A stretch of DNA of 64,000 nt, from the NCBI GenBank assembly GCA_016207165.1, contig JACQQD010000008.1, positions 32,001 through 96,000 of the forward strand, written 5' to 3'. The position numbers were made by a program, and so were the translations under genes. The stretch comes from Candidatus Micrarchaeota archaeon (GTDB lineage: Archaea; Micrarchaeota; Micrarchaeia; Norongarragalinales; Norongarragalinaceae). The notes under the pieces were generated by a model. It searched no databases and had not been told where the DNA came from. It worked only from the letters and a program-made list of their open reading frames with translations. Positions 12,030-52,116 of the stretch are shown here, piece by piece (within the stretch, counting starts at the first letter, position 1; each line of letters opens with the position of its first letter).

Positions 12030-12132
12030 TTTGATTCGCGTTAGCCGGGGGTTCGGGGGAACCTGGGACTATAGGGGGCGGAGCCCCCTGTGGTCCGGGC
12101 GTGAGAACCGGGATGCCATGCTGGGCTTTTTG
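12030..12132 (+). mobile_element. ~73-bp hairpin element (family B) plus duplicated pilin 3' end
   Basis: 11991-12020 repeated exactly at 12103-12132; intervening DNA carries GGACTATAGGGGGC-GGA-GCCCCCTGTGGTCC; homologous to 44138-44206. Mobility is inferred. Confidence 0.65.
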
Positions 12133-38605: not shown

Positions 38606-40363
38606 TTAATGGCTTGCGGGGTGGTCCGGCGTGTGGGTAGCGTGGTGTTGGACGGCGGCGGCCACAAAGGCTTTGAAAAGCGGTTGGGGGGAAAGCGGGC
38701 GGGACGTGAATTCGGGATGGAACTGGACGCCGACGAAGAAGGGGTGGTTGGGCAATTCCAGGATTTTCATGATGGGGTGCTTGGGGTCTTTGCCGGAAAA
38801 AACGATTCCGCTTTTTTCGAATAACTCGATGTATTTGGGGTTGCACTCGTATCGGTGCCGAAAGCGTTCGCGAATCGACGTGGCGCCGTAGTATTTTTCG
38901 GCCAGGGTGTCCTTGACGATGTGGATGTTTTGTCCGCCCAGCCGCATGTTGCCGCCCAGCCCCTCTTTCTCTTTTTGTTCCGGCAGAATGTCGACGACGT
39001 CTTCCTTTGTCTCGGGATCGATTTCCGTGGTGTTCGCGTTTTTCAGGCCCAAGACGTTGCGGGCAAATTCCACCAGAGCCATCTGGAAGCCGTAGCACAA
39101 GCCAAAGTAAGGGAGTTTTTGTTCGCGGGCGTGCTGGATGCACAGGATTTTGCCTTCCGCGCCGCGCGCGCCAAAGCCTCCGGGCACGATGACGCCGTCA
39201 ACGCCTTCCAGTGTTTTCGCGGCGTCCTCCCGTGACTTGATTTTCGTTGTTTCCACCCACTCCACAATGACGTGGGCGTCATTGGCCGCTCCGGCATGTT
39301 CCAAGGCGTTCAGGATGGAGGCGTACGCGTCGTGCAGGCCCGTGTATTTTCCGGTGATGGCGATTTTGATTTCGGTTTTCGGGGACTTGATTTTTTCTTC
39401 GAATTCCTGCCAGCGCGCCAACGCCTTTTCCTGGGTCTTGAGTTTCGCTTTCAGCTGCAGGATATCGGTGACGGCCGCGTCGGCGCCGGCTTGCTTGATG
39501 GCCAGGGGCACGGCGTAAATGCTTTCCGCGTCCGGCAAACTGATGACTCGGTCCAGCGGCACGTTGGAGAAAATCGAGAGTTTCTCGCGGATTTTTTCGG
39601 GGATGGGTTCGTGCGACCGGCAGACCACCAAATGGGGTTGGATGCCCATGCTCATCAACTGGCGGATGCCCAGTTGCGCGGCCTTGGACTTGTGTTCGCC
39701 CAAGGAATCGGGTTTGAGGATGTACGTGACGTTAACGAAGCAGGAATTGCCGGGGCCCTCCTCGTACGCCATTTCGCGAAGCGCTTCAATGGCGTAGCTG
39801 TTTTCGATGTCCCCCACGGTTCCGCCCACTTCGATGAGCACCACGTCGGCTTGCGTCTGTACCGCCAGGGTGCGGATGAAGGACTTGATTTCCCCGGTGA
39901 CGTGCGGAATGAATTGCACGTCGCGGCCGAGGTATTTGCCGTCGCGTTCGCGTTGAATGATTCCGGAGAACAGTTTTCCGGCGGTCAAGTAATTTTGTTT
40001 CGAAAGCTCTTGGTCCAGGAAGCGTTCGTACGTGCCGAGGTCCATGTCGCATTCCGTGCCGTCGTCCAGGACAAAAACTTCTCCGTGGCGGTAGGGGTTC
40101 AAGGTGCCGGCGTCCACGTTCAAGTAGCCGTCGAACTTCATGGCCTCGACTTTCAGCCCCTGGTCCTTGAGGAGTTTGGCAAGCGACGCGGAAAAAATGC
40201 CTTTGCCGACTCCTGAAATCACGGAGCCGGTGACGATGACGTACTTGGTCTTCCCGAATTCGTAGTTTTTGGGGATGGGGGTGTAGAATTCGTGTTCGTC
40301 GGTTTTCTTTGCGAGGCTCTTGATGAGCTGTTCCTGTTCGGTTTGCTCTTTTTTGGCGATCAT
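38606..40363 (-). CDS. pyrG: CTP synthase
   Basis: TKYVIVTG.V.SG.GKG, NVDAGTLNPYRHGEVFV, GLCYG.Q, RHRYE, QFHPEF. Confidence 0.97.
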   Translation of the reverse strand: MIAKKEQTEQEQLIKSLAKKTDEHEFYTPIPKNYEFGKTKYVIVTGSVISGVGKGIFSASLAKLLKDQGLKVEAMKFDGYLNVDAGTLNPYRHGEVFVLDDGTECDMDLGTYERFLDQELSKQNYLTAGKLFSGIIQRERDGKYLGRDVQFIPHVTGEIKSFIRTLAVQTQADVVLIEVGGTVGDIENSYAIEALREMAYEEGPGNSCFVNVTYILKPDSLGEHKSKAAQLGIRQLMSMGIQPHLVVCRSHEPIPEKIREKLSIFSNVPLDRVISLPDAESIYAVPLAIKQAGADAAVTDILQLKAKLKTQEKALARWQEFEEKIKSPKTEIKIAITGKYTGLHDAYASILNALEHAGAANDAHVIVEWVETTKIKSREDAAKTLEGVDGVIVPGGFGARGAEGKILCIQHAREQKLPYFGLCYGFQMALVEFARNVLGLKNANTTEIDPETKEDVVDILPEQKEKEGLGGNMRLGGQNIHIVKDTLAEKYYGATSIRERFRHRYECNPKYIELFEKSGIVFSGKDPKHPIMKILELPNHPFFVGVQFHPEFTSRPLSPQPLFKAFVAAAVQHHATHTPDHPASH

Positions 40364-40473
40364 GCACCCACGTTCCAACACAACGACTGGCGTCTAAGGC
40401 TGAAAGGGCTAAAAAATCCGTGCCTGTTATTCTTTTCGTGGCGGAAGTATTTAAGCGTTCACGTGGCCTTTTC

Positions 40474-40866: not shown

Positions 40867-42246
40867 TCACTTTTTAAGGTTTTGGATGGTGGCTTTCAGT
40901 TTTTCTCGGACTTCGTTGGGTTGAAACCCTCGGTGGCGCTTGAGGAACTCGCCCAGCAAGAATTCCAGGGATTTTTCCTTGCCGGCAAGGTATTCCGAAA
41001 CGGCTTGGGGATTGGATTTCAGGACTTCCGCAACCAGTTCGTCCATCTCGCCTCCTTTCTGTGCGGAGAGAAAGTGCTGAATGGGTTTTTGATGGGTGAC
41101 CATTTCCTTGATGTATTCCTTGGCGGCGCGCTCCGTGATTTTTCCGCTGGACACGGCGGACAACAACGCATCCAGTTCCTGGACGGCCAGCGCTTTGTGC
41201 GGTTCCCAGATGCCGTGGTAGTTCATGCACTTGAGTAAATCTCCGCACACCCACTTCGCCAAAAACAGTTTGTCCGGCGTCTTCGAGGATTCAAAGTAAG
41301 GCGCGAGATTCTGGAAAACGAGCACTTCGGCGTATTGGGCGGGGACGAAATGGGAGAGGCGCCTCGTGGCGATTTCTGGGAGTTCCTTCATGGCGGAAAG
41401 CGTTTCCTCCAGGAATGCCTCGTCCAAGTACAGGGGGGGCAGGTCGGGTTCCACGATGTAGCCGTAGTCTTCTTCCTGTTCCTTGGTGCGCATCAACAGC
41501 GTGGTGTTGGTCTCTTCGGAGTAAAGCCGGGTTTGGCGTTCGACGTTCTCGCCGCTTTGCTTGGCTTTGCGCTGGCGGAAGAACTCGGCTTGGAGTGCCT
41601 TTTCCACGGCTACAAAGCTGGTGATGTTCTTGATTTCGACGCGCTCTCCGCCTGGAATGGATAGGTTCGCGTCGGTTTTCATGACGCGTTCGTTTTGTGC
41701 GTCAATGACGCCCAAATACGACAACTTCTTGAACAACGCCTCCAAGTACGCTTTGGCGTCCGCCGGACTTTTCAGGCAGGGGTCCGTCACGATTTCAGCC
41801 AGTGGCATGCCGGAGCGGTTGTAATCCAACAAACTGTACGTGCTGTTGGCCATGTTGCCGTGCGGGTACACGATTTGCGCGGGGTCCTCCTCCAAGTGCA
41901 GTCGCGTCAGCGTTACGGTAATTTTTCCGTTGACGTTCAGCGCGCCTTTTTCGGCCAAAGGCGAGTCGTATTGCGTGATTTGGTAATTCTTGGACAAGTC
42001 CGGATAATAGTACGTCTTTCGCGCGAACAAGCTTTTACGGTTCAACTGCATCCCCAAGGCGGTGGCGGCCTGGACGGCGAGTTTCACGGCTTTCTCGTTG
42101 GTTACCGGCTTTGAACCCGGCAAGCCCAAACAGATTTCGCAGGTGTGGGCGTTGGGCTCCGCGGGAGCGGTAGGGCAGCCGCAGAAAAGCTTGGTTTCCG
42201 TGTCGAGGGTGACGTGCGTCTCCAACCCGATTTTCATTTCACTCAT
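40867..42246 (-). CDS. gatB: Asp/Glu-tRNA amidotransferase subunit B
   Basis: IGLETH..TKLFC, RKTYYYPDL.KNYQITQ, HLEED, DYNRSG.PL.EIVT, RVEIKN. Confidence 0.96.
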   Translation of the reverse strand: MSEMKIGLETHVTLDTETKLFCGCPTAPAEPNAHTCEICLGLPGSKPVTNEKAVKLAVQAATALGMQLNRKSLFARKTYYYPDLSKNYQITQYDSPLAEKGALNVNGKITVTLTRLHLEEDPAQIVYPHGNMANSTYSLLDYNRSGMPLAEIVTDPCLKSPADAKAYLEALFKKLSYLGVIDAQNERVMKTDANLSIPGGERVEIKNITSFVAVEKALQAEFFRQRKAKQSGENVERQTRLYSEETNTTLLMRTKEQEEDYGYIVEPDLPPLYLDEAFLEETLSAMKELPEIATRRLSHFVPAQYAEVLVFQNLAPYFESSKTPDKLFLAKWVCGDLLKCMNYHGIWEPHKALAVQELDALLSAVSSGKITERAAKEYIKEMVTHQKPIQHFLSAQKGGEMDELVAEVLKSNPQAVSEYLAGKEKSLEFLLGEFLKRHRGFQPNEVREKLKATIQNLKK

Positions 42247-43531
42247 GGGGTTGTTCTACCTGTCGTGCGACGTCGCTCAGTGTTTTTTCCTGGAAGTGAT
42301 TTGTGATGATCTGGAGGCCGACGGGCAATCCGGAAACACGGCCGCAGGGAATGCTGGCATGCGGCAAGCCGGCGAGGTTGGGGGCGCCGGTGCAGATGTC
42401 CATGGCGTAGTGTTCCAGGGGCGAGAGTCTTTCAATTTCCCGAAAACGCGGAGCCACGCATGGCATGGAAGGCGTGATGAGTGCATCGTATTTCTCAAAG
42501 AGTTTCTTGAATTCTCGGATGACCAAGGTTCGGACTTTCGCGGCTTTCTCGTAGTATTTTCCGCGGTAGCCGGCGGTGCGGGCAAACGAGCCCAAAATCA
42601 GGCGGCGCTTGGCTTCGGCGCCAAAACCCTGGGCGCGCACGCGGGAAAAGTATTCCGTGTACGTCTCGGATTCTTCGGGTTTCGGCTGGATGCCGTACCG
42701 CAGGCCGCAGTACTTGGCCAAGTTCGTTGACGCTTCGCTCATGGCCAACACGTAGTAGGCGTAGAGTCCGGGGTCCGCCAACGGAAACGGCGCCTCTTCC
42801 ACGGCGACGCCTTGGGCTTGCAGTTGGCCTGCGGCTTTTTGGCACTGTTTTTGGATGGATGCATCCGTCTTCTCCCAAATCGTCGTCAGCAACGCGATTT
42901 GGTTCGTGCGTTTTTTTTCCGGGAATGGTTTCGTGGTTGTCGCGTCTTTTTCGTCGGGTCCGGCCATGGCGTAAAGCAAGCGGAATGCGTCCTGGACGGT
43001 GGTGGCCATGACTCCGATTTTGTCCAACGAATTGGCGTAGTCAATCAATCCCCAGCGCGACACCCGCCCGTACGTGGGCGTCAACCCCACCACGCCGCAG
43101 AAGGCCGCCGGAGCCGTGATGCTGCCGCCGGTGGACTCCGCTACGGAGGGCATGCCGGTAAACGCCGTGAACGCGGCGGATCCCCCCGATGATCCCCCGG
43201 TGCAACGCAATGCGTCGTGCGGGTTTTTCGGGATTTTCTCGGTGTTGACGTTGAACGTCCCGAACCCGAATTCGTCCATTACGGTTTTGCCCGCCACCAC
43301 GGCGCCTTGGTCGATGAGTCGTTGGACGCACGTCGCCGTAAAAGGCGGCACGTAGCCCTCCAAAATTTTCGAGCCGGCGCGCGCCGGCATGCCTTGCACG
43401 CACAGGTTGTCCTTGACGGCGATGACCGTATTGGAAAGCGGACCCGACTTGGCGGGCCCTAGTTTTTCCGGGATGAATTGCATGCAGTCCAACTTCTTGT
43501 CGGCCTGCCGGGTTTTTTCCAAGGCGTTCAT
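42239..43531 (-). CDS. gatA: Asp/Glu-tRNA amidotransferase subunit A
   Basis: VKDN, GGSSGGS, ESTGGSI, PTYGRVSRWG, GLRYG, GLPVGLQ. Confidence 0.96.
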   Translation of the reverse strand: MNALEKTRQADKKLDCMQFIPEKLGPAKSGPLSNTVIAVKDNLCVQGMPARAGSKILEGYVPPFTATCVQRLIDQGAVVAGKTVMDEFGFGTFNVNTEKIPKNPHDALRCTGGSSGGSAAFTAFTGMPSVAESTGGSITAPAAFCGVVGLTPTYGRVSRWGLIDYANSLDKIGVMATTVQDAFRLLYAMAGPDEKDATTTKPFPEKKRTNQIALLTTIWEKTDASIQKQCQKAAGQLQAQGVAVEEAPFPLADPGLYAYYVLAMSEASTNLAKYCGLRYGIQPKPEESETYTEYFSRVRAQGFGAEAKRRLILGSFARTAGYRGKYYEKAAKVRTLVIREFKKLFEKYDALITPSMPCVAPRFREIERLSPLEHYAMDICTGAPNLAGLPHASIPCGRVSGLPVGLQIITNHFQEKTLSDVARQVEQPHE

Positions 43532-43538
43532 TCTGGGT

Positions 43539-43814
43539 TCACCGCATCATGCGGGGGCCTTTGAGGTACCCTTTCTCTTTCCGGCTATGGTTTCCGGTGG
43601 GGTTTGTGCAGGGTTTTGGTTCGTCCGGCCGCAGCCTCGGCGAAAGCGCCACGGGGTGATAAGATGGTTCAACGCCGTTGGTGTCGATTTGGTCCAACGC
43701 GTCAAAGGCTTTCAAGACATCTTGGAGTTGCTGGGAAAGAATTCGAATTTCTTTGTCGGAAAGCGCCAGGCGCTGGGCGACGGCTATGTTATTGATTTTT
43801 TCCTTTAAATCCAA
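43539..43814 (-). CDS. gatC: Asp/Glu-tRNA amidotransferase subunit C
   Basis: RL.LSD.E, IDT.GVEP, LRPDEP, GYLKGPR; TTG start inferred. Confidence 0.85.
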   Translation of the reverse strand: MDLKEKINNIAVAQRLALSDKEIRILSQQLQDVLKAFDALDQIDTNGVEPSYHPVALSPRLRPDEPKPCTNPTGNHSRKEKGYLKGPRMMR

Positions 43815-43906
43815 AATAATCCCCTGTAACGCCGAATTGAAGGAGTTCTCCTGTGGGCGTGTTGAAAGAAAAAGGTATTTGTTGGCCGCCGGCCACGCGG
43901 TAACGC

Positions 43907-44110
43907 GTGGCGGAAAAACCAAGGAGTCGACGCGGGCAATCGCATGGCACCATGGCGGTGGCGGTCATGGTTTTGTTGGTGCCCGTGGTGCCGGTGGCGT
44001 ACTGGTTCACGGATCATCTCGCCCCCGTGTTTAACTGGTTTGAGGGCCCCCAGATTCTCGCGGCCACCGCCGTTTTGGCGTGGATGTTTTTCCAGAAGTT
44101 CCACTATTAA
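43907..44110 (+). CDS. Small two-TM protein, possible class III-like leader
   Basis: RRG|Q followed by hydrophobic stretch, but lacks E+5. Confidence 0.5.
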   Translation: MAEKPRSRRGQSHGTMAVAVMVLLVPVVPVAYWFTDHLAPVFNWFEGPQILAATAVLAWMFFQKFHY

Positions 44111-44206
44111 AAAGAGCGCCCGAGGTCAGGACTCGAAGGTCGCCCCAGGGGGCTCCGCCCCCTTGGCCCGACCTAGGCCTCGACCCCCGACTAGCTTTTT
44201 GAATCG
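44110..44206 (-). mobile_element. 69-bp hairpin element (family B) plus duplicated tRNA 3' end
   Basis: 44207-44233 repeated at 44110-44137 (1-nt insertion); same AGGGGGCGGAGCCCCCTG core as at 12073. Mobility is inferred. Confidence 0.65.
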
Positions 44207-44213
44207 AAAAGAG

Positions 44214-44338
44214 CGCCCGAGGTCGGACTCGAACCGACGGCCTGCTGATTTCTGTGGATTCAATGAGTTTGCCGACGACCCAAAGTCGGCGGTTACGCTC
44301 TTAACAGTCAGCCGCTCTACCTGCTGAGCTACCCGGGC
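44214..44338 (-). tRNA. tRNA-Asn(GUU) with 52-nt intron at 37/38 (44250-44301); CCA not encoded
   Basis: GCCCGGG/CUCGGGC acceptor, UAGCUCAG D-arm, GCUGA-CU-GUU-A/A-UCAGC anticodon arm, GUUCGAGUC T-loop; 73 nt after splicing. Confidence 0.95.
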
Positions 44339-44519: not shown

Positions 44520-44557
44520 AAAAGAAAAAGAAAGAGGAAAAAGGGGGCTGCGCCCCC
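44520..44557 (-). terminator. Hairpin + T-tract terminator
   Basis: GGGGGC-GCA-GCCCCC-TTTTTCCTCTTT on minus strand just after the operon's last stop. Confidence 0.75.
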
Positions 44558-44567
44558 AACGACGCGC

Positions 44568-44876
44568 CTAGTGGCCGATGATGACGGTACGCTTGGATTG
44601 AAGGGTGCGTTGCTTGCGGAACTCCTTGAGTTGGTAGAAGTACACGGCGGCCGACAAGGCCGGCACGGCCAGGACGAGGTTGACGAAGAGCAGGTAGATG
44701 CCTAAAACCGTTAGGGCCATGAAGTAAAAATTGAACCGCACGTACTCCTTCCACAACGTCAAAAAGCGCGCGATGTAGTCCCACCGCGTCGTCGCCCTCA
44801 GCATCGGTGCCTTGCTCTCGGTGACGGCCATCGAGAGCGTGACGCCGGGGTTGTGCTGGATTTCGTCGTGTGCCAT
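44568..44876 (-). CDS. Two-TM membrane protein (paralog 4)
   Basis: GGAGGTGA SD; RWDYIARFLTLWKEY + helical hairpin + basic tail. Confidence 0.8.
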   Translation of the reverse strand: MAHDEIQHNPGVTLSMAVTESKAPMLRATTRWDYIARFLTLWKEYVRFNFYFMALTVLGIYLLFVNLVLAVPALSAAVYFYQLKEFRKQRTLQSKRTVIIGH

Positions 44877-44881
44877 AATTC

Positions 44882-45004
44882 CTACTTCACCTCCAATTTA
44901 GCGAAGCGAAGGGCGGAGCGTTGCGATCGATGCAACGCATCGATCGCTTCCAACGCCGTGGCCTTCGCAAACTCTTTTTTTTCCATCTTGTTTTTTTCTT
45001 CCAT
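44882..45004 (-). CDS. Possible 40-aa peptide (contains family C repeat)
   Basis: MEEKKQDGKKEFAKATALEAIDALHRSQRSALRFAKLEVK exactly fills the gap; may be non-coding. Confidence 0.35.
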   Translation of the reverse strand: MEEKNKMEKKEFAKATALEAIDALHRSQRSALRFAKLEVK

Positions 45005-45015
45005 GGTGTCGTTGC

Positions 45016-45480
45016 CTACTTGGCGTAGTACAGGGCCTTGCCCTTGAACCACGTCACGTTCCAGGGTGGCTCAATGAGGCGTTGCGACCAGAACAATCCG
45101 GTCAGAAACGCGAACGCCGCCGAGACGTACAAGTTGATGTTGTAGAAGAACACCATGAGGATGAACGCCACCACCGCCCAAAAGTAGAAGCGGTAGGCGG
45201 TGCCCAACCCGCCGCGAAACGAGCTGTCCAACAGTTCCGACAGGAATTTGGAACGCGTTTTGACGTGCATGGTGTGCACCGGCACTTCTTTCCCGCCTTC
45301 CTTCATGTTGCCGCCGCGTTGTCCAATGGGCACGTACATGTGGTGGAATTGCCGGGGGCCGGGTCCGTGGCCGCCTCCGCCATGCGCGTGCGGCGCGTAG
45401 TGGGCACTGCCGTGCGCCTTGACGTGGTCGCGCAAGTCCCTCGCGTTGATTCCGTGAATTTTTCCGTGTCCTTCGCTCAT
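45016..45480 (-). CDS. His-rich two-TM membrane protein (paralog 3)
   Basis: 10 His in first 47 aa; RSKFLSELL + two TMs. Confidence 0.8.
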   Translation of the reverse strand: MSEGHGKIHGINARDLRDHVKAHGSAHYAPHAHGGGGHGPGPRQFHHMYVPIGQRGGNMKEGGKEVPVHTMHVKTRSKFLSELLDSSFRGGLGTAYRFYFWAVVAFILMVFFYNINLYVSAAFAFLTGLFWSQRLIEPPWNVTWFKGKALYYAK

Positions 45481-45481
45481 T

Positions 45482-45682
45482 TCAGCTCACACTCAACAGC
45501 CAGTAGATGACCGTGAAGACCACCACGGCATTGATGATCCAGTCCGGCAAAATCAAGCCGTGGTCAAACATGCCTGTTTTGAAGTCCGTCGGCCCGTCAA
45601 TGATTTTGACGAGGCCGAAGTCTTCCAGTAGGGACATGAGGTGGGTCTCCCACGGGGCATCCGGTTCCTCGTATTCAGCCAT
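45482..45682 (-). CDS. Acidic 66-aa C-terminally anchored membrane protein
   Basis: Tight spacing in operon; single C-terminal TM. Confidence 0.75.
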   Translation of the reverse strand: MAEYEEPDAPWETHLMSLLEDFGLVKIIDGPTDFKTGMFDHGLILPDWIINAVVVFTVIYWLLSVS

Positions 45683-45693
45683 TTTTTTCTACC

Positions 45694-46191
45694 TTAGTCC
45701 ACCAAGGTCAAGGTACGCGAGTACCCGAACTTTTTGGCGATGAAGTCGTACATCCAGGCCAACTCCTTGTGGCGTCCGGCCAGCATGAACATCAACAAGG
45801 CGCCGGGCGGAAACGTCTCCAACGTCAGCAACCCCAAGGCGAAAAACAAGATCGTCTGGATCTTGGACGTAATGCCCTGGCGCCACCACTCGACGTACTC
45901 CGCCAAATACTCCCAGCGCGTGAACTGCCGCAGGTTGGGCGGAAGAGTCCGCTCCACTTCCATGGGCATGTACGACACGTGCAAGTGCTCGCCGCCGCCA
46001 TGCGGCTGCCCGTCGCCGTGGCCCCCGCCGCTTTTTGGGGCGGGTTTGCCTTCGTTTTTGGCCTTGGCAGCCAAAAGCTCTTTCTCGGACTCCTCAAAGA
46101 TTTCTCCCACGTGGTGCGCGGGCGTGGCCGACTCCTCGATAGAGTGAAGCAGCGCGTCGCGCGGATCCCCGTGTCCATGGCTCACCTTCAT
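45694..46191 (-). CDS. His/Gly-rich membrane protein (paralog 2)
   Basis: 9 His in first ~71 aa; RWEYLAEYVEWWRQG + hydrophobic hairpin. Confidence 0.8.
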   Translation of the reverse strand: MKVSHGHGDPRDALLHSIEESATPAHHVGEIFEESEKELLAAKAKNEGKPAPKSGGGHGDGQPHGGGEHLHVSYMPMEVERTLPPNLRQFTRWEYLAEYVEWWRQGITSKIQTILFFALGLLTLETFPPGALLMFMLAGRHKELAWMYDFIAKKFGYSRTLTLVD

Positions 46192-46195
46192 TCAC

Positions 46196-46567
46196 CTACG
46201 TGCTTTCCAACAGGTACCGTTTCTTGTACAACTGGTTGATGTAGAAGTCCTTCTTGAGAAACTCGCCGTAACTCCAGGCCGCGCCCATGCCGGAAACCGC
46301 GGCCAACAGCGGGTTGGAGAACAAAAACAACACCGTGGCAATGCCTCCCGCTACGGACAGCGCCCGGTAGCCGTGGAATTCCCGCCAGTCCGTGATGCCT
46401 TTCGTCAAGAATTCCTGACGGCGCTGGACGTTGATGACGGGTTTGCCTTCTGTCGCCACCGGGGTGAACATGGTGGTCTGCTCAAACTCGGGATCGCTTG
46501 TTTTGCCGATAAACTTGGCTTTGTCGGCGGCCACGACCTGTTTGATGCTTTGGGCGTTGTGCGTCAT
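46196..46567 (-). CDS. Two-TM membrane protein (paralog 1)
   Basis: TTTATAAA box upstream; RQEFLTKGITDWREF + two TMs. Confidence 0.8.
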   Translation of the reverse strand: MTHNAQSIKQVVAADKAKFIGKTSDPEFEQTTMFTPVATEGKPVINVQRRQEFLTKGITDWREFHGYRALSVAGGIATVLFLFSNPLLAAVSGMGAAWSYGEFLKKDFYINQLYKKRYLLEST

Positions 46568-46922
46568 TTGAACCTGTACTACATACCTACTTCCTTATTT
46601 ATAAACTTACTGGTAGTAACAAAATAGGCTCTTTCTGTGGTGCCCTATATTAAATATAAGAAAAGGCTTCGTCTGTGGGTATCATTAGCTAATCCAATAC
46701 TGGTGCGGGTACCGGGGCGCCCCGGGGCTACTAAGATAGGGGTCCCTAGTCCCCTTCGACAAAAGACGTATGATTTTGGAAAGGTTTAAAAACCGACTAT
46801 CGATTACATATTCCGTCGGTTAACCCGGTTTCGGTGTATTGTTTGTTCCCGCTGTTTGGGGGAAGCCGTGTGGCTGAATAGTGTTGATGAATCGGACGAA
46901 CGATGTTCGTCGAGGTGGTTCC

Positions 46923-49835
46923 GTGAAGAGTTTGAACGTGAAGAAAATCGCAACGGCCGCTGCTGGCGCTGCTATGCTTGGCGCGGCCTTTGCGGGCGCG
47001 GTCCAAGTGGACCAAGCCGGTTTGGAGAGCTTTAACTTTTTCTCCAATGGCGCGCCCAATCTGCAGATCGTCGTCGGTTCCCAGGCTCAGGCTTCGGACG
47101 CCGTTGCGGCTGCAAATATTGCCGCGATGATCGGCAACTTGGCGTACACGTCCAAGGACATCACTGTGCTGGGCACGGATGCATTGTCCTGTAGCGGCGG
47201 TACGGGTACCTCCACGGCGTCCTCAGACGAGGTCTCCTTGGAAGTGACGACTCCGGGCGTTAACCCGTCTGTCGCGTACCAAATGAAGTCCTTCATTGAA
47301 GGTTTCCTGGACAGCAACTCGACGGACGACAAGGTGGACTCCTCAGTTGGTTCTGCGGCTACGATTTTGTCCGTGGATGCCAACGGTGTGTCCAGCTCTT
47401 TTGGCCGGAAGGTCACGCCGTCGGAGACTTCGTTGGCGTTCAAGGGCACCATTACGGACCCGCAACGCACGACGGTGACGTACACGGAGGAAGAGCGCTA
47501 CTACCTCTACTCCAAGACGCAGTACGACACGGCGACCAAGAAGGTTAAGTCCCGCAACCCGCAGATTGCCTACGAGGCCATCTTTACCAACCCCATCCAG
47601 GTGTGTACGGAAGTCACGCCGGATGACTCGACGTGTTCGGACACCTACAAGACGCCGTTGCACCGCATGAAGGTCCGCCTCCTGGGTTCGGAGTGGGTCA
47701 TCTTCGGCATGAACAACTTCAACAGCAACATTTCGTTGCCTACGGGTGGTTCAGCCGCGGCCTTGGAATTGGGCAAGGAAATCCAGTTCAAGGAATTCAT
47801 GCAGATTGGCGACGAAGTGTCCAACCCCGCTGGCATCAAGGCGGTCCTCAAGGACATTTCGGCTGTGCCCACGGGTACGGCCCAACTGTTGTCCGCGTCG
47901 TTCGAGATTTTTGACGCCAACGGCAACTTGTTGGACACGACGACCTTGCAGGAAAGCGGTGAATACAACAACCACGGTATCGTCATTCGCGTTACCAAGG
48001 TGTTCGCCGGTTTGGGTCAGACCAGCTACGCGCAGGTTTCGATCTTCTCGGACCGCTTGACGGTGCAAAACGGCGCCACGGTCAGTGCAGACAACCAGCA
48101 ATGGCGCGTCGCCCTGGTCGGCGGCGGTGCCTCGTATGGTCACTCGCTGTCCAAGGTCCAGCTGATCCGGCAAGTCGTTGACGACTTGGAGGCCGGCGGT
48201 TCCGTGACTTTCATCCAGTCCCCGAAGCTCATGAAGCTCTCGTACAATGGATTGGAGGACGTCACGTACGACACGCTGACTTTCCAGACGGGTTCCCAGT
48301 CGTTCCAGACGAGTTCGACGGACACGACGACAGTCAACCTGAACTACGTGCGCGTCACGTCGGGTTTGACGTCGCCGTTTGACTTCGGCACTGTAGCCAA
48401 GAGCCAGTTTTACTACATTGTCGACAGCGCTCCGGTCGGAACGTCGGCGCAGGGTGTGATCTTTTACCAGGACACGACCTCGTCCAGCGCGGGCTTCTTC
48501 GTGCCGTACTTCGGCACGGCGTCCACGTCGGCCGCGGCCACGGGTAACATCACCTACGCCGGAACCGTCACGACGCTGAACTTGGCTAGCTTGACGCGTT
48601 CTCAGATGCGCATCTGGAACGGTACGTCCGCCAGCGGCGACTACAACGCCCAGACCGGCGGTGCCTTGTGTGCGGCGTTTGGTGCCGTTACGAACCAGAC
48701 GCTGGACTTGAACACGTCCATCGGGTTGTCGGCATTGAACTTGAACGGCAACGCGACGGGTCTCACGTTCGGCCAAGGTGGCGGCAGCGGCACGGGTACG
48801 CCCTTGACTACGGGTTACACGCTGAACCAGGAGAACCAGAACATCACGGTCTCCGCGGCCAGCATCAACTCGGGTTGCACGGCGGGTAACGTGACCATCC
48901 AGTTCCTCAACACGAACGGCAGCATTTCGCCGGGCGTGGGAACCACGGGTGTCACCTACGGCGTCCGGAACAACTACGTCAAGTTCAACTACGGTGCCCA
49001 GTCCGTGAACATGCGCTTTGACGCGCGTGGTGTCAGCTTGGCGGCCATCAACAACGGTGACCCGACGGGCAACGCGACGATCTGGATTCCCGAGTACGCC
49101 AAGGACGACGACACGACGCCGGGCGCATTCTCCCTGGACGTCAGCAATGCCGATGTCAAGGGTACGCCTCGTCTGGCGCCCAACAGCGGCACGGCGACGG
49201 TGGGTTACTCCGGCGGTGCGGGTGGTGGCAACGTATACACCATCAACTCGGCGGCGGCCAACTCGACGTTCGAGACGGGTTTCGTCTCGCCCCGCGGCAG
49301 CAAGCTGGAAGGCATTTCCACCTCGACGGCGACGATCAAGTACGCCACGAGGCTGGCCAACGCCTTGTACACGCTGTCGACATCGGGTACGGACACGACG
49401 GCCAACACAGCCACGGCTGACTACAAGGTCGGCGCGGAAGCCCTGAACTCCAACGGCTACAAGGTCGTTGTGAAGGGTATCTCGGCGGCGGGTACGTCCA
49501 CGGGCGGATCTGTCAGCGGTGCCGATGGTTTGAAGCCCTCGCAAGAGTCGGCTTTCGTCGTGACGCCTCTGAACACGGCGAGCTCCCCGTTGGTGGTTCG
49601 CGACAGCCAAGCTGGCGCGCAACCGCTCATTGTGGTGGGTGGCCCGTTGGTCAACTCCGTTGCGTTGTCTGCCATGTCTGGTGGTCCGGCTCCGTCGGCT
49701 TCCGACGAGGCGGTGGTCAAGGTCCAGGGTGACAAGATCCTGGTCTACGGCTTCACGGCTTCGGACACGCAGGAAGCGGCTCGCAGCTTGATTGGCTGGC
49801 TGGCTGCCAATGCGGACTCCGTCACGGGTCGCTAG
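46923..49835 (+). CDS. S-layer protein (Methanococcales-type N/C domains)
   Basis: KKIATAAAGAAMLG leader, IVVGS.A.ASD.V.AA.IAA, C-terminal LIVVGGPLVN..ILV.G; GAGGTG SD; strong codon bias. Confidence 0.9.
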   Translation: MKSLNVKKIATAAAGAAMLGAAFAGAVQVDQAGLESFNFFSNGAPNLQIVVGSQAQASDAVAAANIAAMIGNLAYTSKDITVLGTDALSCSGGTGTSTASSDEVSLEVTTPGVNPSVAYQMKSFIEGFLDSNSTDDKVDSSVGSAATILSVDANGVSSSFGRKVTPSETSLAFKGTITDPQRTTVTYTEEERYYLYSKTQYDTATKKVKSRNPQIAYEAIFTNPIQVCTEVTPDDSTCSDTYKTPLHRMKVRLLGSEWVIFGMNNFNSNISLPTGGSAAALELGKEIQFKEFMQIGDEVSNPAGIKAVLKDISAVPTGTAQLLSASFEIFDANGNLLDTTTLQESGEYNNHGIVIRVTKVFAGLGQTSYAQVSIFSDRLTVQNGATVSADNQQWRVALVGGGASYGHSLSKVQLIRQVVDDLEAGGSVTFIQSPKLMKLSYNGLEDVTYDTLTFQTGSQSFQTSSTDTTTVNLNYVRVTSGLTSPFDFGTVAKSQFYYIVDSAPVGTSAQGVIFYQDTTSSSAGFFVPYFGTASTSAAATGNITYAGTVTTLNLASLTRSQMRIWNGTSASGDYNAQTGGALCAAFGAVTNQTLDLNTSIGLSALNLNGNATGLTFGQGGGSGTGTPLTTGYTLNQENQNITVSAASINSGCTAGNVTIQFLNTNGSISPGVGTTGVTYGVRNNYVKFNYGAQSVNMRFDARGVSLAAINNGDPTGNATIWIPEYAKDDDTTPGAFSLDVSNADVKGTPRLAPNSGTATVGYSGGAGGGNVYTINSAAANSTFETGFVSPRGSKLEGISTSTATIKYATRLANALYTLSTSGTDTTANTATADYKVGAEALNSNGYKVVVKGISAAGTSTGGSVSGADGLKPSQESAFVVTPLNTASSPLVVRDSQAGAQPLIVVGGPLVNSVALSAMSGGPAPSASDEAVVKVQGDKILVYGFTASDTQEAARSLIGWLAANADSVTGR

Positions 49836-49843
49836 TATCTTTG

Positions 49844-49877
49844 AAGGGGGGCGCAAGCCCCCTTTTTCCTCTTTTTT
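49844..49877 (+). terminator. Hairpin + T-tract terminator of S-layer gene
   Basis: GGGGGC-GCAA-GCCCCC-TTTTTCCTCTTTTTT. Confidence 0.78.
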
Positions 49878-49974
49878 CCCTTGTTTTTTCATATCGTTCG
49901 CATCTTTTCCAATACGTTTTTAACCTTGTTTCCATCTCTTTGTTTACTTTCAAGTTGTGAGGTTTGTTTGTCCC

Positions 49975-50586: not shown

Positions 50587-50671
50587 ACCCATTGCTTTTT
50601 TATAGACGGGGTGGCACTACGTGCTTCTCCGATTTTTTTTTACCCTATTCGGATGATTGGTTTTTCACCAT

Positions 50672-51394
50672 ATGGTCAAGCGCGAAACCCTGTTGAAGTA
50701 CGGCGCCTTAGCCTTGATTTTGTTCTTCGTGTTCGAGGCGTTTTTCCCGTTGTTGTTTACGGCGAACGCGTCGGCGACGCCGGTTCCGTCTGTTGACCCG
50801 TCGGCTTTGTCGTTTACGGCGTCGGTAACGGCCAACGTATTGGTGGTCGCGTTGACGGATTTGGCGTTGGGCGCGTGCGCGTCGTCGGATGTGGATTTGG
50901 AGTCCATTCGCGCGTTTCCGGAAGTGTCGCAAGCCTTTTTTGCTTCGGATTCCTTGTTGACGGTTCGCTTGAAGGCCAACGCGTCAACGGTTGCCTTGGA
51001 GGATTATGTGGCCAAAAATTGCTTGCTTCCGTTGTACCGGTCAGCCATCCTGGACGTGCCGGCTTTGACGTTGAACACGTCCAACCAGGGTGAACAGTTT
51101 TTGTCGCGGCGCCAGATGCAGGCGTTCGCACAAAGCCAGGGCTTATCTGGCTTGCAGGGATTTGTTTCCGCCAAGGCGGTGCCTGGGCAGACGGTGAACG
51201 CCACGGTGCAGGTGGCCGTGCAAAACAATGCGTTGGCGGCGGTAACCATCCAGCAGTTGGAGTCCGATGTGGCGGCATCCGGACCTGTGTTCGTAGACGA
51301 GAGAAGCGCCAACGCCACTGAATCGAGTAACGCTTCGGTTTCCAACGTCTCCACGGCGTCTCCCGCAGGGAACGCTTCTGAGTCTGTTGGGTAA
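50672..51394 (+). CDS. Membrane-anchored hypothetical protein
   Basis: N-terminal TM, N-x-S-rich tail. Confidence 0.68.
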   Translation: MVKRETLLKYGALALILFFVFEAFFPLLFTANASATPVPSVDPSALSFTASVTANVLVVALTDLALGACASSDVDLESIRAFPEVSQAFFASDSLLTVRLKANASTVALEDYVAKNCLLPLYRSAILDVPALTLNTSNQGEQFLSRRQMQAFAQSQGLSGLQGFVSAKAVPGQTVNATVQVAVQNNALAAVTIQQLESDVAASGPVFVDERSANATESSNASVSNVSTASPAGNASESVG

Positions 51395-51453: not shown

Positions 51454-52116
51454 ATGAAAGTTCAACAAAACGATTTGGTGGAATTGGAGTACTCGGCGAA
51501 AGCCGATGGACGCGTTTTTGACACGACGTTTTCTGACGAGGCCAAAAAAGCGGGTATTTTCAACGAGAAATCCAAGTATGGGCCGGTGCTGGTCGCTGTC
51601 GGCAAGAAGCAAGTCATTTCGGGCTTGGACGAAGCGCTTTTGGGTGTGGACGAGGGAAAGCCGGTTTCGGCGTCGTTTACCCCGGAAAAGGCGTTCGGCG
51701 AGCGGCGCGCCGACTTGGTGGGCCTCATTCCATTGCAGCGTTTCCGCGAGAACAACTTGGACCCCCAGCCCGGCCAAGTCGTGGAACTGGATGGCCGGCC
51801 GGCGAAGATTCAAAGCGTGTCCGGGGGCCGCGTGCGCGTGGACTTCAACTCGGATTTGGCGGGCAAAACCGTGGATTATTCCTTCAAAGTGTTGAAAGTC
51901 TTTCGTTCGCCGGAGGAAAAAGTCCAGGCGCTCTCTAAGTGGCTTGGGGATGCCGCGAAGGCGGAGTTCAAGGACGGCGTGGTTTCGGTTTCCCTTTCCC
52001 TAAAGAAGGACCAGGCCGCGGACGTCGTCATGAAAAAATTCCGTTTCCTGGAGGGCGTCTTCGCTGAAGTCGAAGGACTCGCGTCCGTTCGTTTTGAGGA
52101 GGAGTACGTCAAGTAG
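51454..52116 (+). CDS. slyD: FKBP-type peptidyl-prolyl isomerase (archaeal long-type SlyD)
   Basis: G.VFDTT, VISGLDEAL, PEKAFGER, GGRVRVDFN..LAGK. Confidence 0.93.
   Translation: MKVQQNDLVELEYSAKADGRVFDTTFSDEAKKAGIFNEKSKYGPVLVAVGKKQVISGLDEALLGVDEGKPVSASFTPEKAFGERRADLVGLIPLQRFRENNLDPQPGQVVELDGRPAKIQSVSGGRVRVDFNSDLAGKTVDYSFKVLKVFRSPEEKVQALSKWLGDAAKAEFKDGVVSVSLSLKKDQAADVVMKKFRFLEGVFAEVEGLASVRFEEEYVK

What the first reader, a model, noticed from the sequence alone, without database searches (positions are those of the whole stretch)
44568..46567. Operon of four divergent paralogous two-helix membrane proteins (two His-rich) back-to-back with the S-layer gene
Seen: tightly packed genes with one TTTATAAA promoter, SD-like motifs and a hairpin terminator nearly identical to the S-layer gene's. 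Four products share a pre-membrane helix (RQEFLTKGITDWREF / RWEYLAEYVEWWRQG / RSKFLSELLDSSFRG / RWDYIARFLTLWKEY), a hydrophobic hairpin with an N/P turn and a basic tail; three have an upstream (Y/F)xP motif; two have 9-10 His in flexible N-termini. A 66-aa tail-anchored protein sits among them. I recognise no family. Inference: an abundant hetero-oligomeric membrane complex (channel, metal-gated pore, curvature scaffold or host-contact structure) co-regulated with the envelope.
Basis: partly seen in the sequence, partly recalled or inferred. Interest (0 to 1): 0.8.

Follow-up and report, generated by a model that had tools for sequence, protein, structure and literature searches.

The report
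Five-gene membrane-hairpin operon of Norongarragalinales archaea
A tightly packed five-gene operon encodes four related two-helix membrane proteins plus a small tail-anchored protein; it matches no known family and was found only in one order of tiny groundwater archaea, so it is probably a new membrane complex of unknown function.

Summary
On the minus strand, 44568-46567 holds five tightly packed genes: A 123 aa, B 165 aa, T 66 aa (tail-anchored), C 154 aa, D 102 aa. They lie behind one consensus TATA box and end in a hairpin/T-tract. That 3' element has only one other copy in the 1.27 Mb genome, right after the divergent S-layer gene.

Profile-profile comparison shows A, B, C and D are paralogues (probability 85-98.6%, except B-C at 51%). 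T is unrelated to them. The order A-B-T-(extra D)-C-D is kept in every locus examined. All five genes are under purifying selection.

The organism is a Micrarchaeota archaeon of the order Ca. Norongarragalinales. The family was found in 32 of 34 and 47 of 51 genomes of that order. Outside it there was nothing credible in 266 and 149 genomes. No match appeared in Pfam, NCBIfam, PHROGs or PDB, by sequence or by fold.

S-layer adjacency holds only in the window's own family (6 of 6 loci against 0 of 12). His-rich tails recur in subunit C but are not universal.

Best reading: a new, order-restricted hetero-oligomeric membrane complex whose soluble parts face the cytoplasm, more likely a scaffold than a transporter. 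Assembly, abundance and function are inferred, not shown.

The parts
46598..46605 (-). Consensus archaeal TATA box TTTATAAA, 30 nt upstream of the ATG of gene A. This implies a very short 5' leader.
   Evidence: Read. Only 7 such octamers occur in the 64 kb window, and only two between 43 and 51 kb. A TATA-like octamer lies near the start of A in 15 of 18 related loci, against 6.2% of background 320-nt windows.
46196..46567 (-). Gene A, 123 aa. It has a conserved PMFxPV-TEGK-V.KV.TR segment, a pre-membrane helix, a hydrophobic hairpin (residues 69-101, SNP turn), and a basic tail ending KKR.LLE(S/G)T.
   Evidence: hhalign A-C 98.5%, A-D 97.8%. dN/dS 0.22.
45694..46191 (-). Gene B, 165 aa (or 163 aa from GTG 46185). 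It has a His/Gly-rich disordered N-tail that is genus-specific. The conserved core is residues ~66-165.
   Evidence: The AF2 model has helices 92-122 and 128-158 at pLDDT 94-98. hhalign B-D 98.6%. dN/dS 0.07.
45482..45682 (-). Gene T, 66 aa. It is a tail-anchored protein with a conserved LLED.G(L/I)V motif and a C-terminal TM. It is unrelated to A-D.
   Evidence: Found in 29 of 30 and 18 of 18 related loci. hhalign against A-D is below 1%. dN/dS 0.12.
45016..45480 (-). Gene C, 154 aa. It has a His/Gly-rich N-tail, an MYVPM motif, a predicted small beta-hairpin, TM helices 92-112 and 117-136 (YNIN turn), and a W..W(F/Y)KGK tail.
   Evidence: His-rich tails recur in several families. dN/dS 0.33.
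44887..44894 (-). Shine-Dalgarno-like GGAGGTGA, 10 nt before the ATG of D.
   Evidence: Read.
44568..44876 (-). Gene D, 102 aa. It is the shortest paralogue, with a TTRW(D/E)Y pre-membrane helix, a hairpin at residues 48-83, and a basic tail ending RTV(M/I)IGH.
   Evidence: The D profile also finds A and B in the same genomes. dN/dS 0.10.
44520..44557 (-). Hairpin GGGGGCGCAGCCCCC plus a T-rich tract, 11 nt after the stop of D. This is the likely 3' end of the transcript.
   Evidence: It is one of only two copies of the pattern in the genome.
49843..49880 (+). Twin of that 3' element, directly after the S-layer gene (46881-49835, +). It belongs to the neighbouring gene, not to the operon.
   Evidence: The S-layer gene matches Pfam S_layer_C at E 1.1e-16.

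Best explanation
SHOWN. This is a five-gene, vertically inherited module, A-B-T-(extra D in some lineages)-C-D, found only in the Micrarchaeota order Ca. Norongarragalinales among the genomes searched. A, B, C and D are ancient paralogues. They share one plan: a variable cytoplasmic N-tail, a short conserved (F/Y)xP strand-turn-strand segment, an invariant Arg that caps an aromatic pre-membrane helix, a tight hydrophobic helical hairpin, and a basic tail with a subunit-specific, conserved extreme C-terminus. T is an unrelated tail-anchored protein with a conserved acidic LLED.G motif.

INFERRED. The genes are co-transcribed from one TATA promoter with a near-leaderless first gene, and translated through short or SD-bearing junctions. 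The products assemble in fixed ratio into a hetero-oligomeric bundle or ring: eight hairpin helices plus one T helix per unit. Both termini of A-D and the N-domain of T would face the cytoplasm, and almost nothing would be exposed outside.

The conserved Arg and basic tails would clamp the complex to the anionic inner leaflet. The strand segments and C-terminal peptides would knit the subunits together. The variable His/Gly-rich tails (mostly on C) would be accessory metal-, pH- or partner-binding arms.

Conserved positions sit at the membrane-cytoplasm interface and none is a polar residue in the membrane core. I therefore favour a structural or organising role at the inner face of the membrane over ion or solute transport.
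For: PARALOGY. hhalign of orthologue-group profiles gives A-C 98.5%, B-D 98.1-98.6%, A-D 97.2-97.8%, A-B 94.6% and C-D 85.5%. The control, T against each group, gives below 1%. CorA gives 0.1-0.2%.

SYNTENY. All four paralogues lie in the same order in 28 of 30 loci, and the other two are cut by contig ends. The same holds in 18 of 18 wider loci. T is present in 29 of 30 and 18 of 18 loci.

REAL GENES. dN/dS is 0.07-0.33 for all five.

DISTRIBUTION.
- B protein: 36 of 41 relatives.
- C protein: 54 of 68 genomes of the order.
- B profile: 32 of 34 in the order, 0 of 266 elsewhere in the phylum sample.
- D profile: 47 of 51 in the order, against 2 marginal hits in 149.
- Only 32 representatives among 1.84 billion proteins, all 155 aa or shorter.

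TOPOLOGY AND FOLD. AF2 gives high-confidence helical hairpins for B and C. Flanks are net positive on both sides and turns are 1-6 residues.

CONSERVATION PATTERN. Invariant residues are Arg, Tyr, Trp, Gly, Pro, plus one Glu and one Ser. They include no His, Cys or Asp, and no charged residue inside the hydrophobic arms.

OPERON SIGNALS..
Against: - Physical association is not shown.
- No expression data exist for this organism.
- The B-C profile similarity is weak (50.6%).
- B's second hydrophobic arm has only about 9-10 residues before a frequent Arg. B may therefore dip into the membrane rather than cross it, so a uniform bundle is uncertain.
- A scaffold role is argued only from the absence of conserved polar residues in the membrane core. 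Backbone or weakly conserved Asn/Gln/Thr residues in the turns could still line a pore.
- No partner gene is conserved beside the module to hint at what would be organised.
Confidence: 0.45

Rival explanations
1. A heteromeric two-TM cation or metal channel. Four paralogous hairpins would form a pseudo-fourfold pore, in the manner of MCU or CorA-type 2-TM channels. T would be a single-pass auxiliary subunit, and the cytoplasmic His-rich tails would sense or funnel Ni/Zn/Co.
For: - The architecture fits: long helix running into TM1, very short polar turn (SNP, YNIN, VN, N/Q/T-P), TM2, basic cytoplasmic tail.
- His-rich N-tails recur on subunit C in at least three families and occasionally on A, B or D.
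- Four paralogues suit a pseudo-symmetric pore.
Against: - There is no homology to CorA: Pfam finds nothing and hhalign against the genome's own CorA gives 0.1-0.2%.
- The genome already has a canonical CorA.
- No invariant acidic or polar residue lies in the turn or in the membrane arms.
- His-rich tails are absent from many genera, so metal handling cannot be the core function.
Confidence: 0.15
2. Not one complex. The products would be separate small membrane proteins, for example paralogous proteolipid-like stress or regulatory proteins, or assembly or accessory factors for a larger machine encoded elsewhere. They would be kept together only by co-expression.
For: - Lineage-specific hypothetical archaeal proteins are typically short and rich in TM helices (PMC9258230, passages read).
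- An extra D copy occurs in some lineages (5 of 30 loci), so copy number is not rigid.
- No partner is conserved next to the module.
Against: - Gene order is invariant with 1-11 nt junctions across an order whose proteins share only 30-45% identity.
- Each paralogue keeps its own conserved extreme C-terminus and strand motif. This fits fixed, non-interchangeable positions in one assembly.
- All five genes are retained together in nearly every genome.
Confidence: 0.2
3. An envelope tether or host-contact device. The complex would anchor the anchorless S-layer protein to the membrane or form part of a cell-cell contact structure, co-regulated with the S-layer gene.
For: - The arrangement with the S-layer gene is divergent and back-to-back in 6 of 6 loci of the window's family.
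- The two transcription units carry the only two copies in the genome of one 3' hairpin/T-tract element.
- The S-layer protein has no C-terminal TM.
- How the S-layer is anchored in Micrarchaeota is unresolved (bioRxiv 10.1101/2021.04.28.441871, passages read).
Against: - Outward loops are 1-6 residues, and both flanks follow the positive-inside rule, so almost nothing would reach the S-layer.
- Adjacency is absent in 12 of 12 loci of other families.
- In five other genomes the S-layer homologue is 210-340 kb away or on another contig.
- The order is proposed to depend little on hosts (PMC12892359).
Confidence: 0.07
4. Spurious ORFs or an annotation artefact in GC-rich DNA.
For: High-GC DNA gives many long chance ORFs on both strands.
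Against: - Orthologues occur in dozens of genomes with conserved order.
- dN/dS is 0.07-0.33.
- AF2 gives high-confidence helices.
Confidence: 0.01

Closest known systems
Lineage-specific hypothetical membrane protein families of archaeal clades (Meheust et al. 2022, PMC9258230; passages read)
   Same: The proteins are short, rich in TM helices, restricted to one clade but well conserved inside it, and lack Pfam or KEGG annotation.
   Different: Here five such genes form one invariant operon, four of them demonstrably paralogous. This points to a defined multi-subunit assembly rather than scattered orphan genes. I found no mention of this family. That paper's supplementary tables were closed, so I could not check whether it lists it.
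Two-TM cation channels with a long entry helix, short turn and basic tail (CorA/MIT family; MCU with its single-pass partner EMRE; features recalled from general knowledge)
   Same: The pre-membrane helix runs into TM1. The outward turn is very short and carries Asn or Pro. TM2 is followed by a basic cytoplasmic tail. Oligomers are built from hairpins. T could parallel a single-pass auxiliary subunit.
   Different: There is no sequence or profile similarity to CorA. There is no GMN or acidic turn motif, no large cytoplasmic domain, and no conserved pore-lining polar residues.
Proteolipid rings of rotary ATPases (c/K subunits, with paralogous c, c', c'' in V-type enzymes; recalled)
   Same: Both are helical-hairpin subunits of about 80-160 aa. 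Paralogues occupy fixed places in one ring.
   Different: No conserved membrane-embedded Glu or Asp is present, and Pfam gives no hit. The module does not lie beside ATPase genes in this window or in the upstream ORFs scanned in ten related loci. The Foldseek hit to E. coli subunit c has E 4.9, which is not significant.
Hairpin-type membrane scaffolds (Mic10, reticulon/REEP, recalled)
   Same: Both have tight hydrophobic hairpins with small-residue-rich arms and flanking amphipathic helices, and both termini lie on one side of the membrane.
   Different: No homology was detected. Those families are eukaryotic homo-oligomers. No membrane-shaping phenotype is known or testable here.
SlaB-type S-layer stalk proteins of Sulfolobales (as cited in bioRxiv 10.1101/2021.04.28.441871, passage read)
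   Same: The genes are linked to the S-layer gene in one family, and the partner S-layer protein has no anchor of its own.
   Different: SlaB has a large extracellular domain and one C-terminal TM. These proteins expose only 1-6 residues outside, and the linkage is not order-wide.

Membership tests
CorA / MIT 2-TM-GxN magnesium-cobalt channels | Match to Pfam PF01544, or profile similarity to a bona fide CorA | tested here: not met
   No Pfam hit at E<=1. hhalign of the C and A profiles against the genome's own CorA gives probability 0.1-0.2%.
CorA / MIT 2-TM-GxN magnesium-cobalt channels | (Y/F)GMN motif at the end of TM1 and a large N-terminal cytoplasmic domain (recalled definition) | tested here: not met
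   The turns read SNP, ETFPPG, YNIN and VN, and no GMN appears in the consensus sequences. The N-tails are short, variable and disordered.
Rotary ATPase proteolipid (c/K subunit) | Conserved ion-binding Glu or Asp in the middle of a TM helix, and a Pfam PF00137 match (recalled definition) | tested here: not met
   No invariant or >=90% conserved acidic residue lies in the hydrophobic arms. No Pfam hit.
Phage or archaeal-virus holins (two-TM class) | Membership of a viral protein family or presence in viral genomes, with a patchy mobile distribution | tested here: not met
   The best PHROGs hits have E 0.004-0.12, to families of unknown function. The C profile finds no relative in IMG/VR contigs. 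The D alignment could not be used for that scan. Synteny is vertical and order-wide.
S-layer membrane anchor (SlaB-like stalk) | A substantial extracellular domain able to reach the S-layer | tested here: not met
   Turns between the two helices are 1-6 residues, and both flanks are net positive. The AF2 hairpins show no external domain.
Hairpin scaffolds (Mic10 / reticulon-homology) | Pfam or profile match, and glycine-zipper oligomerisation motifs (recalled) | tested here: inconclusive
   No Pfam hit. Small-residue-rich arms are present (for example A: AAVSGMGAAW), but no defined GxGxGxG motif is conserved. Oligomerisation is not testable here.
New family proposed here (Norongarragalinales hairpin module A/B/C/D + T) | Mutual profile similarity of A-D, with the TR-aromatic pre-membrane helix aligned, plus conserved order A-B-T-C-D | tested here: met
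   (similarity and register). (order and presence of T).
New family proposed here (Norongarragalinales hairpin module A/B/C/D + T) | The five products form one physical complex | not testable with these tools
   The one complex-prediction job gave no verdict (see Tried and rejected). This needs co-purification or a structure.

The most novel reading that the evidence does not exclude
The module is a previously unknown kind of archaeal membrane machine. It would be a pseudo-symmetric ring of four diverged helical-hairpin paralogues locked by a tail-anchored fifth subunit, invented in the ancestor of Norongarragalinales. This is the Micrarchaeota order proposed to have become nearly free-living. 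The machine would act as a regulated pore or as an inner-leaflet organiser, with His-rich tails as metal or pH switches, and would be needed for an autonomous cell envelope.
Probability: 0.2. Interest if true: 0.75.

Novelty: categorically new. Interest (0 to 1): 0.5.

Why it matters
Norongarragalinales are the Micrarchaeota proposed to have moved from symbiosis towards independence (PMC12892359). This module is one of the few multi-gene features found in nearly every genome of the order that was searched, and in none of the other DPANN genomes searched. It lies beside the S-layer gene in one family.

If the five proteins form one complex, it would be a new membrane assembly with no relative among solved structures or curated families. 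It would also be a compact, tractable target (about 69 kDa per unit by my own estimate, nine helices) for co-expression and cryo-EM.

If they do not, it is still a clean example of how lineage-specific small membrane proteins arise by serial duplication and become fixed in order.

The finding does not yet explain any known phenotype, which limits its present value.

Tried and rejected
FAMILY AND STRUCTURE SEARCHES THAT FOUND NOTHING.
- Pfam on the five proteins, and on all 28 members of the C alignment: only sub-threshold noise (RelB-like E 0.3, DUF6338 E 0.086, Cg6151-P in 2 of 28).
- NCBIfam: one hit at E 0.021, far below its cut-off.
- PHROGs.
- PDB sequence-profile searches with the D, B, C and A profiles: the best hits, E 0.026-0.5, are BRIL-fusion junctions and similar chance matches.
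- Foldseek against PDB with the B and C models: no hit at E<=0.001.
- ESM Atlas: no usable hit for B. The best score for C was 0.79, below the useful range.

FUSED OR VIRAL FORMS.
- Searches for longer, fused forms with the D and T alignments found none. This is weak evidence.
- The viral-contig scan with the C profile found none.

COMPLEX PREDICTION. Complex prediction with A+B+C+D, partner D, gave no verdict (score 0.03, mark 0.32, controls not run). It counts neither for nor against binding.

EXPRESSION. The look-up of sequencing runs listed no RNA holder. It returned 5 DNA runs: 4 groundwater runs from one study, plus 1 with a small share. I did not lay any reads.

IDEAS CONSIDERED AND DROPPED.
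- CorA-like channel: dropped as homology.
- The 40-aa ORF 44885-45004 as a sixth gene: rejected. It had no match at E<=0.01 in any of the seven related loci tested, including two genomes of the same genus. The spacer is poorly conserved in the genus.
- A functional link to pyrG, which lies next to D in 8 of 18 loci. I regard this as plain synteny.
- ftsZ directly upstream of A, seen in one genome only.

NOT IN PRINT. I found no description of the family in the paper search. I read passages of 10.1101/2021.04.28.441871, PMC12892359 and PMC9258230. Supplementary tables were closed. Tables S4/S5 of the first paper (top expressed genes) and the family lists of the other two might bear on expression or prior listing.
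Full report
WHAT IS THERE. The minus strand of 44568-46567 carries five ORFs:
- A: 46196-46567, 123 aa
- B: 45694-46191, 165 aa
- T: 45482-45682, 66 aa
- C: 45016-45480, 154 aa
- D: 44568-44876, 102 aa

The gaps between them are 4, 11, 1 and 139 nt.

A perfect TTTATAAA lies at 46598-46605, 30 nt before the ATG of A. The whole 64 kb window has only seven such TATA-like octamers. Only two lie between 43 and 51 kb, one facing this operon and one facing the S-layer gene.

SD-like GGAGGTGA lies 10 nt before D. GGTGA abuts the ATG of B and is 6 nt before an in-frame GTG at 46185. That GTG start would give MSHGHG..., which matches the MSGHG... start of the genus orthologues.

Eleven nt after the stop of D comes GGGGGCGCAGCCCCC followed by TTTTTCCTCTTT. 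An almost identical element follows the S-layer gene at 49843-49866. A genome-wide pattern search finds exactly these two copies in 1.27 Mb.

NEIGHBOURS.
- gatB, gatA and gatC lie at 40867-43922.
- An intron-bearing tRNA lies at 44214-44338 on the minus strand. ARAGORN missed it and Rfam scored it at 57 bits.
- The divergent gene at 46881-49835 is an S-layer protein (Pfam S_layer_C, E 1.1e-16).

ARE THE FOUR PROTEINS RELATED? Pairwise BLASTP is weak: best values are B-D 1e-7 and A-D 3e-6 in a two-sequence search space. I therefore collected orthologues from 30 related loci, built one alignment per gene, and compared the profiles.

hhalign in the script box gives:

| Pair | Probability | E-value |
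|---|---|---|
| A-C | 98.5% | 3e-15 |
| B-D | 98.1% | not noted |
| A-D | 97.2% | not noted |
| A-B | 94.6% | not noted |
| C-D | 85.5% | not noted |
| B-C | 50.6% | not noted |

The compare tool gives B-D 98.6%, A-C 98.5% and A-D 97.8%.

An invariant Arg sits at their N-cap (A R50, B R92, C R76, D R31). Two membrane-protein controls do not align: T against every group gives below 1%, and the genome's own CorA gives 0.1-0.2%. A D-profile search of genomes also picks up A and B of the same loci at 1e-7 to 1e-12. So the paralogy is real, and T is a different protein.

ARCHITECTURE. Each of A-D has one uncharged hydrophobic stretch, median 35 residues for A, C and D and 27 for B. It is broken by a 1-6 residue turn: SNP, ETFPPG, YNIN, VN. 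Both flanks are net positive.

AlphaFold2 with the orthologue alignments gives these models:
- B: two helices, 92-122 and 128-158, at pLDDT 94-98. The N-terminal 90 residues are of low confidence.
- C: a weakly supported beta-hairpin at 58-67, a short helix at 76-84, and TM helices 92-112 and 117-136 at pLDDT 96.

Before the helix, A, B and C keep a (F/Y)xP segment: PMFLPV, SFxP, MYVPM. Each paralogue keeps its own extreme C-terminus: A ...KKR.LLE(S/G)T, B ...FGK.RSLVLVD, C ...W(F/Y)KGK..., D ...RTV(M/I)IGH.

Invariant and near-invariant positions are Arg, Tyr, Trp, Gly, Pro, Phe, one Glu in the pre-membrane helix of B, and one Ser in C. None is a charged residue inside the hydrophobic arms, and none is His or Cys.

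T has a conserved LLED.G(L/I)V motif (invariant E20), then F..AM, and a roughly 20-residue TM that runs to the C-terminus.

By the positive-inside rule, the soluble parts of all five proteins would be cytoplasmic. This is an inference.

HIS-RICH TAILS. B has 10 His and C has 12. Of these, 9 and 10 lie in the variable N-tails. B's His-rich tail is confined to the genus. C's recurs in the window's genus (7-10 His) and in four loci of another family (9-10 His), with 3-4 His in several others. Many genera have none. A or D carries a His patch in single lineages. So the tails are a recurrent accessory, not a defining feature.

CONSERVATION AND DISTRIBUTION. Source names on close hits and contig titles place the organism in Candidatus Micrarchaeota. 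Several relatives are labelled Candidatus Norongarragalinales. The DNA occurs in groundwater metagenome runs.

Counts, each including the window's own genome where the tool did so:

| Query | Found in |
|---|---|
| B protein | 36 of 41 relatives |
| C protein | 54 of 68 genomes of the order |
| B profile | 32 of 34 order genomes; 0 of 266 other genomes in the phylum sample |
| D profile | 47 of 51 order genomes; 2 of 149 others |

The two outside hits for the D profile are single matches at E about 0.005. One lies inside a 544-aa frame and one contains stop codons. I read both as chance.

The order genomes without a match are 69-89% complete. In a library of 1.84 billion representatives, the B profile finds only 32 proteins at E<=0.001, none longer than 155 aa.

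GENE ORDER. The order is A-B-T-(D')-C-D in all 30 loci. Twenty-eight hold all four paralogues, and two are cut by contig ends. Some loci are near-duplicates, so there are 27-28 distinct sequences per gene. The same order holds in 18 of 18 wider loci.

With a profile, T is found in 29 of 30 and 18 of 18 loci. The profile includes some of those sequences, but the 18 wider loci and two others were not in it. An extra D-like copy sits before C in 5 loci.

Between two genomes of the same genus, dN/dS is 0.22, 0.07, 0.12, 0.33 and 0.10 for A, B, T, C and D.

A TATA-like octamer lies near the start of A in 15 of 18 loci, against 6.2% of background 320-nt windows.

CONTEXT. The divergent S-layer gene is adjacent in 6 of 6 loci of the window's own family and in 0 of 12 loci of other families. 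In five genomes of other families an S-layer homologue exists but lies elsewhere. In two it is about 210 and 340 kb away on the same contig. In three it is on another contig.

Upstream neighbours elsewhere are unrelated housekeeping genes: M24 peptidase, FtsZ, FolD, an LppM-domain protein, Yip1 and Nnr. CTP synthase follows D in 8 of 18 loci. So the module is self-contained, and the link to the envelope gene is a family-level trait. In this genome the unique shared 3' element reinforces that link.

COMPARISON WITH WHAT IS KNOWN. Nothing significant came from any library:
- Pfam, NCBIfam, PHROGs.
- PDB profiles.
- Foldseek against PDB.
- ESM Atlas.
- Viral contigs.
- Searches for fused forms.

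The architecture recalls two-TM channels (CorA, MCU), proteolipid rings and hairpin scaffolds. The defining features that I could test for CorA, proteolipids, holins and S-layer stalks are not met (see the membership table).

The literature I could search does not describe the family. From the passages I read:
- PMC12892359 describes Norongarragalinales as metabolically rich, making their own archaeol lipids, and possibly independent of hosts.
- PMC9258230 notes that clade-specific hypothetical archaeal proteins tend to be short and rich in TM helices.
- The S-layer preprint on a different Micrarchaeota lineage leaves S-layer anchoring open.

HOW IT MOST LIKELY WORKS. What is shown: a co-linear, purifying-selected, order-restricted set of four paralogous hairpin proteins plus one tail-anchored protein.

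What is inferred: co-transcription, fixed-ratio assembly into a hetero-oligomeric bundle or ring with cytoplasmic soluble parts, and a scaffold-like rather than transport role. The reason for the last point is that conservation concentrates at the membrane-cytoplasm interface, in the strand motifs and in the C-terminal peptides, not in the membrane core. I put this at 0.45.

Rivals:
- A heteromeric cation or metal channel, 0.15.
- Separate small membrane proteins, or accessory factors of another machine, 0.20.
- An envelope tether or host-contact device, 0.07.
- An artefact, 0.01.

The rest is left for functions I have not thought of.

LIMITS. There are no expression data and no verdict on binding. 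There was no access to AlphaFold DB or HHpred-scale profile libraries. Paper supplements were closed. The genomes outside the order are a sample, so the correct wording is "not found in those searched", not "absent".

Noticed in passing
window 44214-44338 (-): A tRNA gene of 125 nt with an intron, lying between gatC and the operon. ARAGORN reported no tRNA in the whole window, but Rfam RF00005 scores it at 57 bits. By eye the anticodon loop reads CUGUUAA, which would make it tRNA-Asn(GUU) next to gatCAB. That reading is unverified.
   Followed up: partly
window 44543-44557 (-) and 49843-49866 (+); also 44148-44162 (-) and 12074-12088 (+): The hairpin/T-tract GGGGGCGC(A)AGCCCCCTTTTTCCTCTTT occurs exactly twice in the 1.27 Mb genome, after gene D and after the S-layer gene. 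The bare stem GGGGGCGGAGCCCCC, without the same tail, also occurs after the tRNA and at 12074.
   Followed up: yes
window 44923-44947 (-), in the C-D spacer: A perfect 11-bp palindrome, GCGATCGATGC-GTT-GCATCGATCGC, lies inside the 139-nt C-D spacer. The spacer is A-rich and poorly conserved in the two other genomes of the genus, which lack the palindrome. In other genera C and D are only about 10-20 nt apart.
   Followed up: partly
window 44885-45004 (-): A 40-aa lysine- and glutamate-rich ORF (56 aa from an upstream GTG) lies between C and D. It had no match at E<=0.01 in any of the seven related loci tested, including two genomes of the same genus. It is probably not a gene.
   Followed up: yes
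window 46185 (-): Gene B may start at GTG 46185 rather than ATG 46191. GGTGA lies 6 nt upstream of the GTG, and the genus orthologues begin MSGHG.
   Followed up: partly
window 52939-57702 (-), 50657-51394 (+), 51454-52116 (+): A 1587-aa protein with CarboxypepD_reg / Ig-like domains is probably a large surface protein. A 245-aa ORF has no Pfam match. An FKBP-type isomerase with an FKBP26 IF domain also lies here. The last two genes also follow the S-layer gene in two related genomes (G001, G007).
   Followed up: partly
L046 7113-8195 (+) (genome G045): In one genome of another family, ftsZ lies directly upstream of gene A on the same strand. This was not seen in the other 17 wide loci.
   Followed up: no
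window 38606-40381 (-); related loci L044, L045, L048, L049, L054, L055, L057, L058: CTP synthase (pyrG) lies right after gene D in 8 of 18 related loci. In this window gatCAB and the tRNA are inserted between them.
   Followed up: partly
genome G039, contigs C41 and C50: This genome carries two copies of the module on two contigs, with 7 matches to the D profile. This could be duplication or a mixed bin. One copy is identical in sequence to that of G012.
   Followed up: no
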